From a virus, in IMG/VR virus record IMGVR_UViG_3300035703_000062, positions 10,338 through 74,337 of that record: a DNA stretch of 64,000 bases; one strand, given 5' to 3'. Numbering within the stretch: the stretch's first letter is position 1; each line of letters opens with the position of its first letter. Shown in pieces: positions 6,431 to 15,691 of the stretch. The notes under the pieces are model-generated. The model was not told the DNA's origin. It did no database searches and saw only the letters and a list, made by a program, of their open reading frames with translations. The position numbers and the translations under genes were made by a program.

Positions 6431-6501
6431 GTTGAGGAATGTTTCAGTACACGACAATGTACCCAGTTCTAGAATGATTGCAATATCAGGATTCCTTATG
6501 C

Positions 6502-8604
6502 ATGGCTGACGTTACACAAGGTGGGGATATGGTGTCGCTCGGGCATGCCACAGCGGGTGGTATTCGCGCCGATGGCCTGCAAAATGTGTTCACCGGGATG
6601 GGCACGAGCCGTGATAAGACCACCCGCACCACTGTTAAGCCGGTGTCTTTCATGGGCCATGAAGACCTTGAAGGTCTTTATGCACATTGGCTCATGCGGC
6701 GCATTGTTGACCTCGTGGCGGACGAATGCACCCGCGAGGGCTTTGAGATTTTGTTTGGCGGGGAGGGCGTCAATGCTGAAACGCTTTCTGGCGTTGAACA
6801 GGCCATTGAAGACCTGGAAATTCTGTCCTTCTTCAACGAGGCGGCCAAAACTTCTCGCTTATATGGCGGCAGCGCGTTGCTGCTCTACATCGACGATGGG
6901 CGTCCGTCCGATATGCCCGTTGACAAGAATAATATTCGCGCTGTGGAGGGTATGGACTGCCTGGATCGGCATCAGATTGCGCCGATCATTAGTGAAGAAA
7001 GTCTGTACGACTATTCCAAGGCAACTTACTACCAAATCATTTCTGGCGATCTAATTCAGCAGCCCAACCTCCGTGCCATCCATAAGGACAGAATTCTGCG
7101 GTTTGACGGCATTTGGCTGCCGTATCGCACGCGGCAGAAGAACTATGGCTGGGGCATGAGCGTGCTGCAGAGCGTCTATGACAGCTTCAAGCACTACTAC
7201 AGCGGCACCGCATCCATTGCCACCCTTCTTACTGAGTTTGACATCTTTGTGCATAAGGTGAGGGGCTTGGCTTCCATGCTGGCCGCTGGCAAGGAAGGGC
7301 AGGTAAGAGATCGCCTGCAACTGAATGACATGAGCAAGAGCATCTATCGCGGCTACGCGATTGATGCGGAGAAGGAAGAGCTGGCCTTTGTTAGCCGGCA
7401 GTTTGGCGGCGTGAGCGAAATCCTGGAGAAGCTGCGCATCGATGTGATTGCCGCTGCTGGCATTCCCCATACATTGCTATTTGGCCAGTCACCGTCTGGC
7501 TTGGGCGCTACGGGCCGTAGTGAAGAGCGTGACTTTGCCAAGACTTGCCATCACTACCAAGAAACTAATTTCCGAAAGCCTCTGACAAAGCTGATGGAAT
7601 ACATCATGCTGAGTAAGACTGGCCCCACTGGCGGAAAAGTGCCTGATAACTGGCGCGTGAGCTTCAAGCCTCTGTTTGAAATGAACGAGCGTGAGCTGGC
7701 TGACGTGCGTGCGCGGGTGGCTGCGGTGGATGCTCGTTACATCCAGGTGGGTGTGCTTACGCCGCAGGAAGTGGCAGATTCGCGGTTCGGAAAGAGCGAA
7801 TACAGCATTGAAACCACCATTGATCCATCGATCAAGCGGGAAATGCCGCAGAAGCCTGGCGACGGCAAGATGGCCGTTCCTCCGGGTGGTCGCGATCCGC
7901 TGGATCAGCAGAACGGCAGCCTGCCTATGGATGGATCTCGCGAGGCTTCGGAAAGCGCAGCGGAAGAGACGATGGATGAAGCGGGCCTCTACATGTCTCG
8001 CGATCTAGAGAAGGTGCGTGGCGACGTGACATTCACCGACAAAACCCTGCATTCACGAGCCGTTAGCGCTGCCAAATCGAAGTTCAAGGTGTGGCCTTCT
8101 GCCTACGCCAGTGGTTATGTCGTGCAGAAATACAAGCAAATGTACAAGGAGAAGCATGGCTCTCTGAGCGGCGCCTTCAAAGGCGACGGCGAAGAGCTTC
8201 ATGCCGACGACCTTGATAAGTGGTTTAAGGAGAAGTGGGTGAGGATTGGGGCTAATGGCGAAATCATGGGGCCTTGTGGAGCCCGTGAGAAGGGCGAAGG
8301 CAAGCCGAAATGCTTGCCCCAGGCAAAAGCACAAGGGATGTCGAAGGAAGAGCGGCAGCGCATTGTTGCCCGCAAACGTAAGGCCGATCCCAATCCTGAG
8401 CGTCGCGGTCCGGCCAAGATGGTGAGCAGTAAAACTGATGCCATTGAACCGCTCAAAGCGGAAGGCCTCATCCTGGGTGACATTGACGAAGCCGCGCTGA
8501 TCACGCAGGCTGATATTGACGCAGCTTTGAACCAGTGGAAGCAGGAAGCTCCTGAGCGCTTCAAGGACATTCTGGAGGCCGGCAATGTTGAGCCCACTGA
8601 GTGA
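6502..8604 (+). CDS. Portal protein (DUF1073/HI1409 family) with long C-terminal extension
   Basis: DGLQNVFTGMG, RRIVD, SRLYGG, HKDRILRFDG, WGMSVLQ, IPHTLLFGQSPSGLGATG, FKPL; about 250 extra residues after the portal core. Confidence 0.9.
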   Translation: MADVTQGGDMVSLGHATAGGIRADGLQNVFTGMGTSRDKTTRTTVKPVSFMGHEDLEGLYAHWLMRRIVDLVADECTREGFEILFGGEGVNAETLSGVEQAIEDLEILSFFNEAAKTSRLYGGSALLLYIDDGRPSDMPVDKNNIRAVEGMDCLDRHQIAPIISEESLYDYSKATYYQIISGDLIQQPNLRAIHKDRILRFDGIWLPYRTRQKNYGWGMSVLQSVYDSFKHYYSGTASIATLLTEFDIFVHKVRGLASMLAAGKEGQVRDRLQLNDMSKSIYRGYAIDAEKEELAFVSRQFGGVSEILEKLRIDVIAAAGIPHTLLFGQSPSGLGATGRSEERDFAKTCHHYQETNFRKPLTKLMEYIMLSKTGPTGGKVPDNWRVSFKPLFEMNERELADVRARVAAVDARYIQVGVLTPQEVADSRFGKSEYSIETTIDPSIKREMPQKPGDGKMAVPPGGRDPLDQQNGSLPMDGSREASESAAEETMDEAGLYMSRDLEKVRGDVTFTDKTLHSRAVSAAKSKFKVWPSAYASGYVVQKYKQMYKEKHGSLSGAFKGDGEELHADDLDKWFKEKWVRIGANGEIMGPCGAREKGEGKPKCLPQAKAQGMSKEERQRIVARKRKADPNPERRGPAKMVSSKTDAIEPLKAEGLILGDIDEAALITQADIDAALNQWKQEAPERFKDILEAGNVEPTE

Positions 8605-9247
8605 TCCGTGGCCCCGCTTTGATGCGGAGTGGGGCTATGACGCCAACCTGGGGCGCTATAGGCGCCCCTCTGGGCAGTTCATGAGTCAGAAGGCCGTGAT
8701 GGCGCTTGTGGATGGTCGCATTGACAAACTCGGCCAGAATCTACGGCGATTCACGCAGATGCTGGCTGATGGCAACATCACAATTGACCAATGGCAAGGG
8801 AGTGTCCGCGAGGCAATTAAGGCTGCTCATATTCAGGCAACAGTGCTTGGGCACGGTGGTAAGGATGGTATGGGCAGCGCAGAGTATGGCCGCATCGGCC
8901 AGAGGCTTCGTGCGGAATACACTTTCCTTCAGGGCTTTGCTAGCGATATTTTGGCTGGCCGCGTTTCTCCTGCCATGGCTCTTGCTCGTGTGCAGCTATA
9001 TGCTGAAAGCGTGCGAAGCTCTTACTGGGAAGGTGCCAGTCTTCGTCAAGGCAAGCAGGGATACTCTCTGATGCGACGCATTTTGGACCCGCAGGCAAAG
9101 CATTGTGATGACTGTCTTCGTTATGCGAGGGCTGGTTTAGTCGCGATGGGGAGTTTGCCGATGCCGGGACAGCGTTGTGAATGTCGGGCGAGGTGTCGCT
9201 GTTCTGTCGAATACAAGCGCAACGCTATACCGACAAGTCCCGTGTGA
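8585..9247 (+). CDS. Head morphogenesis protein (SPP1 gp7/Mu gpF-like)
   Basis: Follows portal; HCDDC..P..CECRARCRC Cys motif. Confidence 0.75.
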   Translation: MLSPLSDPWPRFDAEWGYDANLGRYRRPSGQFMSQKAVMALVDGRIDKLGQNLRRFTQMLADGNITIDQWQGSVREAIKAAHIQATVLGHGGKDGMGSAEYGRIGQRLRAEYTFLQGFASDILAGRVSPAMALARVQLYAESVRSSYWEGASLRQGKQGYSLMRRILDPQAKHCDDCLRYARAGLVAMGSLPMPGQRCECRARCRCSVEYKRNAIPTSPV

Positions 9248-11163: not shown

Positions 11164-11706
11164 ATGGCTCACGCTGAGCAGCAACAATTCGTTCAGAGCG
11201 TCAAGGCTTCTTTCTCATCGTTCTTTAAGGGTGGGCGGATTGTCGAAATTGGCAGCCTTGACATCAACGGCACCGTGCGCGGGTTCTTTGAAGAACCCGC
11301 TGAATACATTGGCGTGGATCTTGGTCCTGGCCGTGGCGTAGACGTGGTATGCGAAGGGCAAGATTATGACGGCGCTACAGATGGCTTCGACGTGGCTATT
11401 TCGGTGGAGTGCTTTGAGCACAACCCGCATTGGAAAGAGACCTTTGCAAATATGTTTCGCATGGTTCGCGACGAAGGGCTCATCGTGATGACTTGTGCAA
11501 CTACGGGCAGGCCGGAGCATGGCACTTCTCGCAGTGATGCGGGCAGCAGCCCTCTAACGGTGGGCAAAGGCTGGGAATACTACAAAAATCTCACTGAAAA
11601 CGATTTTCATGCTGCGTTTGAACTGAATAGCATGTTCTCGGATTATTGTTTTAGTGTGAATACAAGTAGTCACGATCTTTATTTCTGGGGGCTCGTCGAG
11701 AAATGA
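11164..11706 (+). CDS. Class I SAM-dependent methyltransferase
   Basis: VEIGSLDINGTVR, YIGVDLGPGRGVDVV, FDVAISVECFEH. Confidence 0.9.
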   Translation: MAHAEQQQFVQSVKASFSSFFKGGRIVEIGSLDINGTVRGFFEEPAEYIGVDLGPGRGVDVVCEGQDYDGATDGFDVAISVECFEHNPHWKETFANMFRMVRDEGLIVMTCATTGRPEHGTSRSDAGSSPLTVGKGWEYYKNLTENDFHAAFELNSMFSDYCFSVNTSSHDLYFWGLVEK

Positions 11707-11987
11707 CCGCAAAGCAGAAGCAGGCAAAAGTTCGTAAGGTGATGCGTGAATTTAAAGCCGGCACCCTTAAGGGCAGCGATGGCAAGCCCGTGAAGAATCG
11801 TCAGCAAGCTATTGCCATTGCCTTGAGCGAGGCTGGCATGGCTAAGAAAGATAAGAGCGACGCTTATTGGGATACCTACATCGACACAATGTGTGGTTCG
11901 ATGAGCAAAGAGGGCATGGAAGAAGAGGAAGAGGAGGAAGGTGAAGAGGAGGAGATGGAAGATGGCTCCTGCGGAAAAAAGCGCTGA
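11703..11987 (+). CDS. DUF6496-like basic protein with acidic tail; extended by a -1 frameshift
   Basis: KVRKVMREFKAGTLK..VKNRQQAIAIALSEA; ends at A AAA AAG CGC TGA. Confidence 0.8.
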   Translation: MTAKQKQAKVRKVMREFKAGTLKGSDGKPVKNRQQAIAIALSEAGMAKKDKSDAYWDTYIDTMCGSMSKEGMEEEEEEEGEEEEMEDGSCGKKR

Positions 11988-12014
11988 GGGGCGACGCTGA
12001 AGGCTTCGCCCCTC
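11975..12014 (+). promoter_or_regulatory. Programmed -1 ribosomal frameshift signal
   Basis: A AAA AAG heptamer 11975-11981 in the correct phase; perfect 9-bp stem GAGGGGCGA (11986-11994)/TCGCCCCTC (12006-12014). Confidence 0.8.
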
Positions 12015-12328
12015 CTCGGGCAGTAAGGAATGCTGCGCGGCGCGGACTTGAGCTGCGTCGCAAGCATGGCAAAGGAGGGCTTACCACTGGCGAAGCCGGT
12101 AAGCAAGGGATTGGCAGTGGCGTGGCCAGGGCAACCAGTCTGGCCAATGGCCAGAAAGTGAGTGAAGCTACATTGCGTCGTATGGTTGCGTTCTTTTCGC
12201 GCCACGAAAAGAACAAGAGCGGCGGAGAAGATGACGCTGGTTACATCGCCTGGCAACTATGGGGAGGCGATGCGGGGAGAGCGTGGGCAAATCGCACGCT
12301 TAAGATGTTGGAAAACCGTTCAAAGTAG
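11981..12328 (+). CDS. Frameshift-accessed conserved phage head-associated domain (PP.AVR.AARRGLELR..GVARA..L..RM..FF.RH..IAW.LWGG)
   Basis: -1 frame open from 11945 to 12328 with no ATG/GTG/TTG before 12122, yet the protein-like motif begins at about 12005. Confidence 0.75.
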   Translation, partial: ALRGDAEGFAPPRAVRNAARRGLELRRKHGKGGLTTGEAGKQGIGSGVARATSLANGQKVSEATLRRMVAFFSRHEKNKSGGEDDAGYIAWQLWGGDAGRAWANRTLKMLENRSK

Positions 12329-12992: not shown

Positions 12993-14189
12993 ATGAGCAC
13001 CACATCTTGTCGGTACGACGTTTCTCCTATTGAGAAATATGAAATGACGCCTGAAGGTTATCTTCGGGTGTGGGCTTCAATTGCTCGTACTGGCATTCAG
13101 CATTACACCGATGCTGACGGTTCAATCAGGAAGGAATTCCGTCCTGAAACTGAAGTGGCGTCTCCAGAAAGCCTTGCCTCATTTGCGGGGAAGGCAATCA
13201 CGATGGAACATCCTCCTGTTCTTTTGGACAGTGAGAACACCAAGGATTACCAAATCGGTTTCACTGGCTCAGAAATTGTTTATGACAATGGCTTTGTTAA
13301 AGCCGTCATGACCGTGACTGACCGCGAAACCATTGATAAGGTGATGCGCGGCGATGTTCGTGAAGTGAGCGCTGGCTATAGGGTCAATTATGATCCGACG
13401 CCTGGCGTTACCGATAGCGGTGAGCATTACGACGGCATCCAAAAGGAGATCAGTGGTAATCACGTCGCTATCGTTCGTCGAGGCCGAGCTGGCCCGCAGG
13501 TGAGGTTGCATTTGGATCGTCTAGATGCCGCTGATCCATCTCTAATTTCCACAGAGGAAAACCAAACCATGAGCGCAAAAGTCAATTTTGACGGCGCTGA
13601 GTTTGAGGTGAGCGAGAGCGTTGCTCTGGCGATCACCAAAGAACGAGAAGACGCCAAGATGTCCTACGAGGACATGAAGAAGAAGTACGACGAGCTGCAG
13701 GCCGCTGCTGATTCCATGAAGTCCGAAATGGACGCCATGGCTGAGGAAATGAAGGGCAAAATGGATTCCGCCGAAGGGCGGGCCGATGCTCTGGCCGAGC
13801 AGGTTGACTCCCTGAAGGCTGAACTGGAAGAAGCCAAGCAAATCAACGTTGATTCCATCGTTGAAGATCGTCTGGCTCTGATTTCCAAGGCCAAGCCTGT
13901 GCTGGATTCTGCTTATGAATTCAGCGGCAAGAGCGCCCGCGAGGTGATGGTGGATGCCATCAAGGCAGTTCGCGGTGATTCTGTTGCTCTGGACGAGCGT
14001 TCCGACGATTACGTTCAAGCAATGTTCGACACCATCTCTGAAGACGCTGCCGGTCGCGCTGATTCCACCGAGGATCTGCGTAAGGCCGTGGCTTCCATTG
14101 CCACCCCTGCTTCCGCACCTTCTTCCTACATGGAGAAGCTGCAGAATGCCTGGAAGTCCCCTCTCTCCATTTCTAAGGAGGCTAAGTAA
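12993..14189 (+). CDS. DUF2213 prohead protease fused to coiled-coil scaffold
   Basis: TPEGYL..ARTGIQ.Y, ITMEHP, EVSAGY, NHVAIV.RGRAG; C-terminal coiled coil. Confidence 0.92.
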   Translation: MSTTSCRYDVSPIEKYEMTPEGYLRVWASIARTGIQHYTDADGSIRKEFRPETEVASPESLASFAGKAITMEHPPVLLDSENTKDYQIGFTGSEIVYDNGFVKAVMTVTDRETIDKVMRGDVREVSAGYRVNYDPTPGVTDSGEHYDGIQKEISGNHVAIVRRGRAGPQVRLHLDRLDAADPSLISTEENQTMSAKVNFDGAEFEVSESVALAITKEREDAKMSYEDMKKKYDELQAAADSMKSEMDAMAEEMKGKMDSAEGRADALAEQVDSLKAELEEAKQINVDSIVEDRLALISKAKPVLDSAYEFSGKSAREVMVDAIKAVRGDSVALDERSDDYVQAMFDTISEDAAGRADSTEDLRKAVASIATPASAPSSYMEKLQNAWKSPLSISKEAK

Positions 14190-14776: not shown

Positions 14777-15691
14777 ATGAGCGAATTTCGTATGGATGAA
14801 GCGGGTCTGTTTCTTGAGCGCCAGCTTGAGTACATCCGCCCTCAAGTATTTGAAGTCGAATATGCCGACATCAAATACCCCACAATCCTGCCTGTAACCA
14901 GCGAAGCTGGTCCTGGCGCACAAACCTTCACCTATCGCATCATGGATGCGACTGGTGACTTCAAGCTCATCTCGGACGCTGCAGACGATCTGCCGCGTGC
15001 TGATGTGAGCCAAACCGAGAAGAGCCTCAACATCCGCTCCTTCGGTGGTTCCTTCGGTTACACCGTCCAGGAACTGCGTGCCGCTCAAATGGCCAACGTG
15101 GCTCTTGAGCAGCGTCGTGCCGCCGCTGTGCGTCGCGCTTACGAAGAGAAAGTGGAGCAAGTTGCTCTGTTCGGTGAGGCTTCGGTGAGCCTGGCTGGTT
15201 TCTTCAACAACGCAACTGTTGACGTGCTGGCTGCTGATAAGTGGTTCACTGGCGCTACCGCCACTGGCACCACTGCACAGGACATGCTGGAGCTGCTGAA
15301 CCAGGGTGTTACTGCCATCATCAATGGCTCCAACATGAAGGAGCAGCCCGACACCATCCTGATGGCTTGGGAAGATTACAACGTGGTTTCCACCACTCGT
15401 AACTCTGACTCTTCGGATGTGACTGTGCTGGAGTACTTCCTGCGCACCAACCCCTTCATCCGTAACGTTGAACCCATCAATCAGCTCGATGCCGACAAGA
15501 GCGAGCTGAGCAAGAACCGGATGGTCATCTACAAGCGTGATCCCGGCAAGGTGCAACTGCACATTCCTCAACCCCTGGAACTCTTCCCGCCCCAACAGCG
15601 CGGTCTTGAGTTCATCGTTCCCGCCCATGCTCGCGTGGGTGGTGTCGCTCTGTACTATCCGAAGAGCGTCATCTACGTTCAGGCTCCCTGA
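14777..15691 (+). CDS. Major capsid protein (DUF2184, HK97 fold)
   Basis: FLERQLEYIRPQV, DLPRADV, FGYTVQELRAA, GGV.LYYP; AGGAGG RBS. Confidence 0.93.
   Translation: MSEFRMDEAGLFLERQLEYIRPQVFEVEYADIKYPTILPVTSEAGPGAQTFTYRIMDATGDFKLISDAADDLPRADVSQTEKSLNIRSFGGSFGYTVQELRAAQMANVALEQRRAAAVRRAYEEKVEQVALFGEASVSLAGFFNNATVDVLAADKWFTGATATGTTAQDMLELLNQGVTAIINGSNMKEQPDTILMAWEDYNVVSTTRNSDSSDVTVLEYFLRTNPFIRNVEPINQLDADKSELSKNRMVIYKRDPGKVQLHIPQPLELFPPQQRGLEFIVPAHARVGGVALYYPKSVIYVQAP

What the first reader, a model, noticed from the sequence alone, without database searches (positions are those of the whole stretch)
8020..8604. Basic cargo domains fused to the portal and delimited by [RK]xD motifs
Seen: the portal tail holds two basic modules (AKSKFKVWPSAYASGYVVQKYK; LDKWFKEKWVRIG..PCG..PKCLP..RKRKAD), bounded by VRGD, FKGD/HADD and SKTD. 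Similar motifs lie near the N-termini of the portal (IRAD-G), gpF-like protein (PRFD-A) and MCP (FRMD-E), at the protease/scaffold junction (RLD-A), through the scaffold (KMD-S, RAD-A, RSD-D, RAD-S) and at the start of the frameshifted domain (LRGD-A). Inference: the DUF2213 protease cuts after Asp in [RK]xD and releases internal head proteins that condense DNA or are injected, a polyprotein cargo-loading system.
Basis: inference. Interest (0 to 1): 0.7.

Follow-up and report, generated by a model that had tools for sequence, protein, structure and literature searches.

The report
Swappable basic modules on a phage portal
The portal protein of this cyanobacterial virus carries an optional, strongly basic add-on domain (Pfam DUF5872) joined by conserved Asp-containing linkers that look like cutting sites for the head protease, so it is probably a small packaged head protein; neither the cutting nor the function has been shown.

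Summary
Window 8020-8604 encodes the last 195 residues of a 700/708-aa portal in a complete 74-kb relative of Synechococcus phage S-CBS4. The two "basic modules" are the N- and C-halves of one uncharacterised Pfam family, DUF5872 (E 8e-12). An acidic 54-aa tail follows that is conserved in all relatives.

The region is a cassette. S-CBS4 and about 24 metagenomic relatives lack the second half. Others carry an extra DUF3721 module. A sister phage lineage encodes DUF5872 and DUF3721 as separate genes between MuF and the head protease.

The junctions keep [RK][GE]D|[VA] before the domain and K-x-D|A-x-[DE]-P after it. That seven-residue motif occurs only once more in the window, at the protease/scaffold junction.

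[RK]xD is not enriched in the portal (7 observed, 6.5 expected). [RK]xD[AVGSE] is enriched in the five head proteins (18 vs 6.1) and not elsewhere (32 vs 29.5). The capsid protein's RMD|E aligns with the first visible residue of Vibrio phage XM1 capsid protein.

The reading as a protease-released, portal-tethered cargo is therefore plausible but unproven. The general idea, effector domains fused to portal or MuF, was already proposed by Iyer et al. 2017. DNA condensation by 12 copies per virion is unlikely. "HADD" is a family-wide helix cap, not a boundary site.

The parts
6478..8604 (+). Portal gene. The TTG at 6478 gives 708 aa. The ATG at 6502 gives 700 aa and is the start used in S-CBS4.
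   Evidence: Pfam Phage_portal_3 E 5e-66 and PHROG 146 portal E 7.5e-114. 85-89% identical to S-CBS4 gp012.
6676..7731 (+). Portal core (Phage_portal_3, residues 67-418).
   Evidence: Homologous to the solved Pam3, XM1 and E217 portals.
7843..7971 (+). Acidic Pro/Gly-rich flexible linker (residues 456-498, net charge -4).
7972..8025 (+). Peptide resembling the MCP N-terminus (residues 499-516), ending in the conserved VRGD junction. Candidate cut sites are D500|E501 and D516|V517.
   Evidence: blastp-short: the MCP N-terminus is the best non-self hit, E 5e-4. The core AGL[FY]L..DLE..RGD|V is kept in 62 orthologues.
8026..8184 (+). DUF5872 module 1 (residues 517-569). A predicted helical hairpin carrying the KFKVWPSAYASG motif, net charge +8.
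   Evidence: It is the only module in S-CBS4-type portals.
8185..8214 (+). Acidic loop and helix cap between the modules (residues 570-579, containing FKGD and HADD).
   Evidence: Lower-confidence loop in the model. The acidic cap before L-x-K-W-F is family-wide. The loop is about 8 residues longer than in stand-alone DUF5872 proteins.
8215..8439 (+). DUF5872 module 2 (residues 580-654). A helix, a small sheet and further helices; two conserved Cys; a basic RKRKADPNP tail; ends in SSKTD; net charge +10.
   Evidence: Absent from S-CBS4 and about 24 metagenomic clusters.
8431..8451 (+). Junction motif K-T-D|A-I-E-P (D654|A655), the candidate protease site.
   Evidence: One of only two matches to [RK]xDAx[DE]P in the window. 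D and A are invariant in 62 orthologues. The motif is duplicated on both sides of the DUF3721 insert in variant portals. It sits where the ordered domain meets a segment with pLDDT below 50.
8440..8601 (+). Conserved acidic C-terminal tail (residues 655-708, net charge -9, predicted helix). It is always C-terminal whatever modules precede it.
8585..9247 (+). Next ORF (220 aa), overlapping the portal stop by 20 nt. It has a conserved N-terminal R-[FML]-D motif.
   Evidence: No Pfam hit at E up to 1 and no BLASTP similarity to two Phage_Mu_F proteins. PHROG 24776, unknown function.
12993..14189 (+). Head maturation protease (DUF2213, residues 18-172) fused to an acidic coiled-coil scaffold.
   Evidence: Pfam E 5e-44 and PHROG 530 E 6.5e-106. 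H73, S126 and H157 are invariant across five distant homologues.
13518..13538 (+). Protease/scaffold junction R-L-D|A-A-D-P, the second match to the extended motif.
   Evidence: Kept as R-[LQ]-D-A-A-D-P in 26 of 28 orthologues and as R-N-D|A-V-A-D in the sister lineage. Not kept in distant DUF2213 proteins.
14777..15691 (+). Major capsid protein (PF09950). Its N-terminal R-M-D7|E8 is a candidate maturation site.
   Evidence: D7|E8 aligns with D30|E31 of XM1 MCP, whose first 30 residues are not seen in the cryo-EM map.

Best explanation
The stretch encodes an accessory cassette grafted onto the inward-facing C-terminus of the portal. The order is: flexible acidic linker, short peptide resembling the capsid protein N-terminus, DUF5872 (two small basic sub-modules), and a conserved acidic C-terminal helix. 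Because it is fused to the portal, it should be built into the procapsid at 12 copies without needing a targeting signal of its own.

I propose that the DUF2213 serine protease, which is co-assembled as a protease-scaffold fusion, cuts after Asp in [RK]-x-D followed by a small residue or Glu. The proposed cuts are D516|V517 (possibly also D500|E501) and D654|A655. They would free a roughly 15.5-kDa protein of pI about 10 inside the head, and also the acidic tail. The same protease would cut itself from the scaffold at RLD|A and trim the N-termini of the capsid protein, the portal, the protease and the next ORF.

The freed basic protein would stay with the DNA near the portal and might leave with it on infection.

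Shown: the domain identity, its optional and cassette-like nature, the conserved junction motifs, and the link of the family to head modules and virions. Inferred: interior location, cleavage, DNA association and ejection.
For: Identity and modularity:
- DUF5872 sits at residues 520-632.
- Three architectures occur within one portal lineage: module 1+2, module 1 only, and module 1+2 plus DUF3721.
- The module-1-only form keeps a YFKE remnant of WFKE, so it looks like an internal deletion. S-CBS4, which has this form, is a cultured phage, so module 2 is dispensable.

Link to the head:
- A sister lineage has a portal 37% and an MCP 52-54% identical to this one. It encodes DUF5872 (169 aa, 65-70% identical) and DUF3721 as separate genes between MuF and the protease-scaffold.
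- Among 48 long DUF5872 proteins, partner domains include Phage_portal_3 (3), Portal_Mu, Mu-like_Pro, SLT, InPase and GNAT. PHROG partners include portal, minor head protein, virion structural protein and lytic tail protein.
- S-SCSM1 ORF29 contains both modules and is annotated 'virion protein' in a genome whose virion proteins were set by mass spectrometry (PMC9602691).
- The nearest portal outside this group, CL131 gp012, is portal+InPase+MuF in one 1393-aa chain. Iyer et al. 2017 proposed that such fusions are packaged and injected (PMC5512222).

Junctions:
- [RK][GE]D|[VA] before module 1 is kept in most of about 46 sequences and exactly as RGD|V in 62 viral-contig orthologues.
- K-x-D|A-x-[DE]-P stands before the tail in every architecture and on both sides of the DUF3721 insert.
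- The only other match to that motif in the window is the protease/scaffold junction. It is conserved there and in the sister lineage.
- The MCP site aligns with the first visible residue of XM1 MCP. KAD|A sits at the same aligned position in two phages, Klebsiella K50_evo11 and Escherichia phiA2-1.
- D654|A655 lies at the edge of a disordered segment in the AlphaFold model.
- The protease keeps an invariant His/Ser/His.
Against: - There is no direct evidence of cleavage. No virion proteome of S-CBS4 or a close relative was found, and the Pam3 paper does not discuss processing.
- In XM1 the missing 30 residues are only unseen, not shown to be cut off.
- [RK]xD is at chance frequency in the portal. 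The refined motif was defined after looking at the sites.
- The protease/scaffold motif is absent from distant DUF2213 proteins.
- R-x-D-G at the portal N-terminus and R-[YF]-D at the protease N-terminus are conserved over long distances. They could be fold elements.
- SSK before the Asp belongs to the conserved tail of the DUF5872 family, also in proteins not fused to portals.
- Two other portal-DUF5872 fusions, P0138 and P0139, have G-E|I, not [RK]xD, before the domain.
- The fold has no solved relative, so no function can be read from structure.
Confidence: 0.45

Rival explanations
1. The extension is a permanent, uncleaved portal appendage. The basic DUF5872 domains stay tethered to the crown as 12 DNA-contacting arms, for example to hold the last-packaged DNA end or to sense head filling. 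The conserved Asp junctions would be linker or helix-capping features.
For: - Portal C-termini face the capsid interior and often contact DNA (general knowledge of portal structures).
- The SSK..D tail belongs to the family even in non-portal proteins.
- The [RK]xD count in the portal is at chance.
- Long C-terminal extensions are common in this portal family: Pam3 621 aa and CL131 1393 aa.
Against: - It does not explain why the same seven-residue motif marks the protease/scaffold junction.
- It does not explain why the motif is duplicated on both sides of an inserted module.
- It does not explain why the domain is a separate gene in a sister lineage.
- It does not explain why the refined motif is enriched only in head proteins.
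Confidence: 0.3
2. The extension acts only during assembly. The basic modules and the capsid-N-arm-like peptide recruit the acidic scaffold/protease to the portal to nucleate the procapsid. They are then cut off and lost with the scaffold fragments before DNA packaging. This would resemble the C-terminal trimming of the Mu portal gpH, which I cite from memory.
For: - Charges are complementary: modules +8 and +10 against an acidic scaffold and tail.
- A peptide resembling the MCP N-terminus sits on the linker.
- The junction motifs are the same as in the best explanation.
Against: - Module 2 is dispensable in S-CBS4.
- A related two-module protein is annotated a virion protein in phage S-SCSM1, whose virion proteins were set by mass spectrometry on purified particles.
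- The family is fused to enzymes typical of delivered proteins, such as SLT, GNAT and InPase.
Confidence: 0.15
3. The motif pattern has no function. The region is a fused domain of unknown role, and the [RK]xD motifs arise from the charged composition of head proteins and from shared ancestry of closely related sequences.
For: - The motif is short and degenerate, with about 100 occurrences in the proteome.
- Orthologues are 72-98% identical, so conservation has little discriminating power.
- The motif was refined after the fact.
Against: - The composition-corrected enrichment is limited to head proteins, and an [RK]xE control is flat.
- The motifs persist in a lineage with only 37-54% identity while the flanks differ.
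- The extended motif has just two matches, both at domain junctions.
Confidence: 0.1

Closest known systems
Phage 'polyvalent proteins' with effector domains fused to portal or MuF (Iyer, Burroughs, Anand, de Souza, Aravind 2017, PMC5512222). Examples: BcepF1.124 portal-InPase and, found here, CL131 gp012 portal-InPase-MuF.
   Same: - An accessory domain is fused C-terminal to a Phage_portal_3 portal inside the head gene module.
- The domain is also found alone and in many other fusions.
- It is predicted to be packaged through its structural partner.
- DUF5872 shares proteins with InPase, GNAT and SLT domains.
   Different: - The cargo is a small non-enzymatic-looking basic domain (DUF5872, DUF3721) that I did not find named in the parts of that paper I read.
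- Only one or two modules are present, not 2-15.
- Processing is proposed to be done by the head maturation protease at Asp sites, not by an embedded zincin-like peptidase.
T4 internal proteins IPI-III and Alt, and phiKZ inner-body proteins. These are packaged head proteins processed by the prohead protease after Glu: [LI]-x-E for gp21 and [SAG]-x-E for gp175 (from general knowledge).
   Same: Small, basic, head-internal proteins released by the maturation protease at a short motif ending in an acidic P1 residue. The same protease trims the capsid protein and the scaffold.
   Different: - Targeting here is by covalent fusion to the portal, which fixes 12 copies. T4 uses an N-terminal capsid-targeting sequence and hundreds of copies.
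- The proposed P1 residue is Asp, not Glu.
- The protease belongs to the DUF2213 family.
Proteolytic trimming of portal proteins during head maturation: Mu gpH C-terminus, P2 gpQ N-terminus, T5 pb7 (from memory, not checked here).
   Same: The portal would be a substrate of the head protease, and the removed part lies at a terminus.
   Different: In those phages the removed piece is a short peptide or tail, not a folded, mobile and widely distributed domain.
MuF-fused polymorphic toxins of temperate phages (Jamet et al. 2017, from memory; also cited within PMC5512222).
   Same: A variable C-terminal cargo sits on a conserved head-internal carrier protein, and cassettes are swapped between relatives.
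   Different: The carrier is the portal, not MuF. The cargo shows no toxin-like features, and no immunity gene is evident.

Membership tests
Pfam PF19197 DUF5872 | Match to the family HMM above the gathering score. | tested here: met
   46.2 bits against a cut-off of 27.5, E 8.1e-12, residues 520-632 covering HMM positions 2-108 of 116. A single-sequence phmmer search found 1973 representative clusters. The Atlas nearest clusters are DUF5872 from Uroviricota and Nucleocytoviricota.
Pfam PF06381 Phage_portal_3 (portal) | Match to the portal HMM, position next to terminase, and homology to solved portals. | tested here: met
   E 5e-66. The terL gene is adjacent on the other strand. Sequence matches to the Pam3, XM1 and E217 portals.
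Polyvalent proteins (Iyer et al. 2017) | Two or more unrelated effector-type domains in one polypeptide of a phage or conjugative element, in a packaging/virion gene context, often on a portal or MuF carrier. | tested here: inconclusive
   The carrier and the context are met. However, this portal carries only DUF5872 (plus DUF3721 in some relatives), and neither has a known effector activity.
Polyvalent proteins (Iyer et al. 2017) | An embedded zincin-like (MPTase) peptidase for self-processing. | tested here: not met
   The portal has no peptidase domain. The only protease in the head module is the separate DUF2213 protein.
T4-type internal proteins | An N-terminal capsid-targeting sequence removed at [LI]-x-E by a gp21-type protease. 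| tested here: not met
   The domain is C-terminal to the portal, has no N-terminal targeting peptide, and the junctions end in Asp. The protease is DUF2213.
DUF2213 head maturation protease (PF09979), the proposed processing enzyme | HMM match, conserved catalytic-type His/Ser/His residues, and fusion to a scaffold. | tested here: met
   E 5e-44 for residues 18-172. H73, S126 and H157 are invariant in five homologues of 29-35% identity. A preprint places the catalytic Ser of a T1-like homologue at S121 (10.1101/2023.05.21.541620).
DUF2213 head maturation protease | Cleavage specificity after Asp in [RK]-x-D. | not testable with these tools
   The support is indirect only: motif statistics and the XM1 MCP model starting after the aligned Asp. 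No paper reporting a cleavage site for this family was found.
Phage_Mu_F (for the next ORF, 8585-9247) | Match to PF04233. | tested here: not met
   No Pfam hit at E up to 1. No BLASTP similarity to the MuF parts of CL131 gp012 or of the sister-lineage 290-aa protein. Only a C-terminal Cys-rich motif resembles MuF.

The most novel reading that the evidence does not exclude
Marine siphoviruses related to S-CBS4 may use the portal C-terminus as a loading dock for a set of small, basic, virus-specific modules. These are the two DUF5872 halves and DUF3721, with DUF6321 and DUF6496 possibly related. The modules would be exchanged as cassettes at conserved K-x-D|A-x-[DE]-P junctions. An Asp-specific DUF2213 prohead protease would cut at these junctions, as it cuts itself from the scaffold. 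The result would be a portal-tethered polyprotein that delivers exactly 12 copies of each module into the head and probably into the host. This would assign a first role to DUF5872, which has at least 1973 clusters and also occurs in giant algal viruses. It would also give the first cleavage rule for a very common phage protease family.
Probability: 0.3. Interest if true: 0.65.

Novelty: new variant of a known kind. Interest (0 to 1): 0.5.

Why it matters
- DUF5872 is abundant in marine phages (cyanophages, pelagiphages, roseophages) and in algal giant viruses, and it has no known function. Linking it to the head interior gives a testable role.
- DUF2213 proteases are found in more than 1,400 sequenced phages, including Klebsiella, E. 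coli T1-like, Vibrio and Acinetobacter phages. I found no published cleavage specificity for them. An Asp rule would let mature ends of head proteins be predicted across these phages.
- The cassette behaviour at a fixed junction suggests a natural site where foreign domains could be hung on a portal for packaging into capsids.
- The general concept of portal-fused cargo is not new.

Tried and rejected
- **Fold searches.** The AlphaFold model of residues 515-708 (pLDDT 74.6) gave no solved relative. Foldseek against PDB found nothing at E<=0.001, and the VIA-align wide search peaked at Z 4.5. BFVD returned only other DUF5872/DUF6321 proteins. The Atlas search added nothing on function.
- **Literature.** DUF5872 appears in one paper, in passing. 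DUF6321 appears in none. DUF2213 appears in seven papers, none on specificity. The Pam3 paper does not discuss processing. The CL131 paper does not discuss its giant portal. The Rtp (T1-like) genome paper, which might hold an N-terminal sequence of the capsid protein, is not held.
- **Portal-MuF fusion by frameshift.** I tested whether the acidic tail plus the next ORF form a split MuF, or whether a frameshift joins them into a portal-MuF fusion like CL131 gp012. There is no similarity and no slippery sequence in the 20-nt overlap. Rejected.
- **Internal start at Met499.** The Met is not conserved in orthologues. Rejected.
- **FKGD/HADD as a cut site.** It is a loop and helix cap inside one family-wide domain. 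Considered unlikely.
- **T4-type [LIV]-x-E sites.** They flank module 2 in two T4-like cyanophage proteins (VSE|G and MQE|G before, VKE|D and MKE|E after). This is suggestive, but the motif is too short and too few cases were seen to count as evidence.
Full report
**What the window is.** The window is 64 kb of a complete 74,337-bp uncultivated virus genome with direct terminal repeats. Its nearest cultured relative is Synechococcus siphovirus S-CBS4. The portals are 85-89% identical, the protease-scaffolds 96%, and the gene order is the same.

The head module runs as follows:
- terL, on the minus strand
- portal (6478/6502-8604)
- a 220-aa ORF overlapping the portal stop by 20 nt
- two glycosyltransferases and a methyltransferase
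- small ORFs
- DUF2213 protease fused to a scaffold (12993-14189)
- cement protein
- major capsid protein (14777-15691)

**The observation.** All quoted strings are present at the stated places. Region 8020-8604 covers portal residues 515-708, numbered from the TTG.

They do behave as separable units. S-CBS4 and about 24 metagenomic clusters have module 1 only. T4-like cyanophage proteins carry module 2 alone, or module 2 some 70 residues before module 1.

The anatomy of the extension:

| Residues | Element | Net charge |
|---|---|---|
| 456-498 | acidic Pro/Gly linker | -4 |
| 499-516 | peptide resembling the capsid protein N-terminus, ending VRGD | -2 |
| 517-569 | module 1, helical hairpin | +8 |
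| 570-579 | acidic loop | -5 |
| 580-654 | module 2, helix-sheet-helices, two conserved Cys, ends SSKTD | +10 |
| 655-708 | acidic helical tail | -9 |

**A cassette, not part of the portal fold.** Within one portal lineage there are three architectures:
- module 1+2+tail, as in this genome
- module 1+tail, as in S-CBS4
- module 1+2+DUF3721+tail

The module-1-only form keeps YFKE where the full form has WFKE, so it looks like an internal deletion. S-CBS4 is a cultured phage, so module 2 is dispensable.

A sister lineage of siphoviruses has a portal 37%, a protease-scaffold 38% and an MCP 52-54% identical to this one. It encodes DUF5872 as a separate 169-aa gene, 65-70% identical to the portal-borne copy. 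In at least one locus (L094), DUF3721 is also a separate gene. Both lie between MuF and the protease-scaffold.

More widely, DUF5872 has at least 1973 clusters at 50% identity. It sits at any position in proteins of 110-1700 aa. Partner domains include three portal families, a Mu-like protease, SLT, InPase, GNAT and DUF6321. PHROG partners include virion structural, minor head and lytic tail proteins.

One two-module protein, S-SCSM1 ORF29, is annotated a virion protein in a genome where that label comes from mass spectrometry of purified particles. The nearest portal outside the S-CBS4 group, CL131 gp012, is a 1393-aa portal+InPase+MuF fusion. Iyer et al. 2017 described such fusions as polyvalent proteins and proposed that they are packaged and injected.

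**The junctions.**
- Before module 1, [RK][GE]D|[VA] is nearly invariant although the flanks vary. It is RGD|V in all 62 viral-contig orthologues.
- Stand-alone DUF5872 proteins start about four residues after this Asp.
- Before the acidic tail, every architecture has K-x-D|A-x-[DE]-P.
- Where DUF3721 is inserted, the motif stands on both sides of the insert: SKVD|AKDP upstream and KSD|AIEP or KED|AIEP downstream.

I searched all six-frame ORFs of 60 aa or more (54,230 residues) for [RK]xDAx[DE]P. There are two matches: this portal junction and R-L-D|A-A-D-P directly after the DUF2213 domain. That second site is where a protease-scaffold fusion would be expected to cut itself. It is conserved in 26 of 28 orthologues and appears as R-N-D|A in the sister lineage.

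In the AlphaFold model, D654|A655 lies where the ordered domain gives way to a segment with pLDDT below 50.

**Statistics.**

| Test | Head proteins | Other proteins |
|---|---|---|
| [RK]xD, observed vs shuffles | 22 vs 15.0 (portal alone 7 vs 6.5; protease-scaffold 10 vs 4.5, p about 0.008 uncorrected) | 78 vs 78.4 |
| [RK]xD[AVGSE] | 18 vs 6.1 (0 of 1000 shuffles reach it) | 32 vs 29.5 |
| [RK]xE[AVGSE] control | 4 vs 6.3 | 23 vs 32.3 |
| [RK]xD within the first 26 residues | 4 of 5 | 2 of 44 (Fisher p 3e-4) |

The P1' set in the second row was chosen after seeing the sites. The Asp of [RK]xD is also more conserved than other Asp residues in the head proteins (0.93 against 0.81; p about 0.02). 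These tests are post hoc and the orthologues are close, so I treat them as moderate support.

**An outside anchor.** The capsid protein's R-M-D7|E8 aligns with K29-D30|E31 of the Vibrio phage XM1 capsid protein. The XM1 cryo-EM paper reports that the first 30 residues are not seen and suggests that they are cleaved off (PMC10457771). Klebsiella phage K50_evo11 and Escherichia phage phiA2-1 have K-A-D|A at the same aligned position, and a Vibrio phage has T-I-D|D. The protease keeps invariant His73, Ser126 and His157 across homologues of 29-35% identity.

**What weakens the reading.**
- No proteome or N-terminal sequence for this phage group was found.
- The protease/scaffold motif is not kept in distant DUF2213 proteins.
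- R-x-D-G at the portal N-terminus and R-[YF]-D at the protease N-terminus are conserved over long distances. They may be fold elements.
- The SSK before the second junction belongs to the family's own conserved tail.
- Two other portal-DUF5872 fusions have G-E|I before the domain.
- HADD is a family-wide acidic helix cap, and FKGD lies in an intra-domain loop.
- The fold has no solved relative, so DNA binding rests on charge alone.
- With 12 copies per virion, a general role in DNA condensation is not credible. A local role at the portal-proximal DNA end, or delivery into the host, fits better.

**Verdict.** This is an optional DUF5872 cassette on the portal, very likely a head-internal passenger, with good but indirect sequence evidence for release by an Asp-directed DUF2213 protease. 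The kind of system, portal- or MuF-fused packaged domains, is already described. The new elements are the cargo family, the cassette junction and the proposed protease rule.

I checked it, and it adds a further candidate site, D500|E501.

Noticed in passing
window 7972-8025: The portal linker peptide (residues 499-516) resembles the MCP N-terminus (residues 6-24). The MCP is the best non-self hit in the window (blastp-short E 5e-4), and the core AGL[FY]L..DLE..R is kept in 62 portal orthologues. It could be a second protease site or a scaffold-binding mimic.
   Followed up: partly
window 11703-12328: The 94-aa ORF at 11703-11987 is a DUF6496 domain (PF20106, E 8.5e-10) followed by K-S-D|A and a poly-Glu tail. 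The -1 frame (11945-12328) opens with L-R-G-D|A and has no Pfam match. This is another small basic module in the head gene block with the same junction motif.
   Followed up: partly
L097:6696-7205, L094:6567-7004 and L094:7001-7510: In the sister lineage, the stand-alone DUF5872 and DUF3721 proteins both carry a similar basic helix near the C-terminus, roughly R-[DE]-x-[LM]-x-K-[LM]-M-D-x-Y-[KR]-K. In DUF5872 it follows an SSK..D|A junction. It may be a shared capsid-targeting peptide.
   Followed up: no
L089:7944-12125 (Aphanizomenon phage CL131 gp012): The annotated 'putative portal protein' has 1393 aa and contains Phage_portal_3, InPase and Phage_Mu_F in one chain. The phage's genome paper does not comment on this.
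   Followed up: partly
window 8585-9247: The ORF after the portal overlaps its stop by 20 nt and sits in the +1 frame. It has no Pfam family and no detectable similarity to two MuF proteins. Only its C-terminal C-x2-C...C-x-C...C-x-C motif looks MuF-like. It occupies the position that MuF holds in related phages.
   Followed up: partly
L097:3033-5114 and L094:3466-5553: The sister-lineage portals (693-695 aa) have a different C-terminal extension, ending in a basic segment with a faint DUF6321-like match (E 0.31). The portal C-terminus therefore carries different passengers in different lineages.
   Followed up: no
P0147, P0267 (L002:3806-5359), P0268 (L003:4001-5284), P0053: A further small Cys-containing motif, roughly C-W-x-G-Y...G-x-K...P-N-C-V, recurs beside DUF5872 modules in cyanophage virion-type proteins. 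It has no Pfam family in these scans.
   Followed up: no
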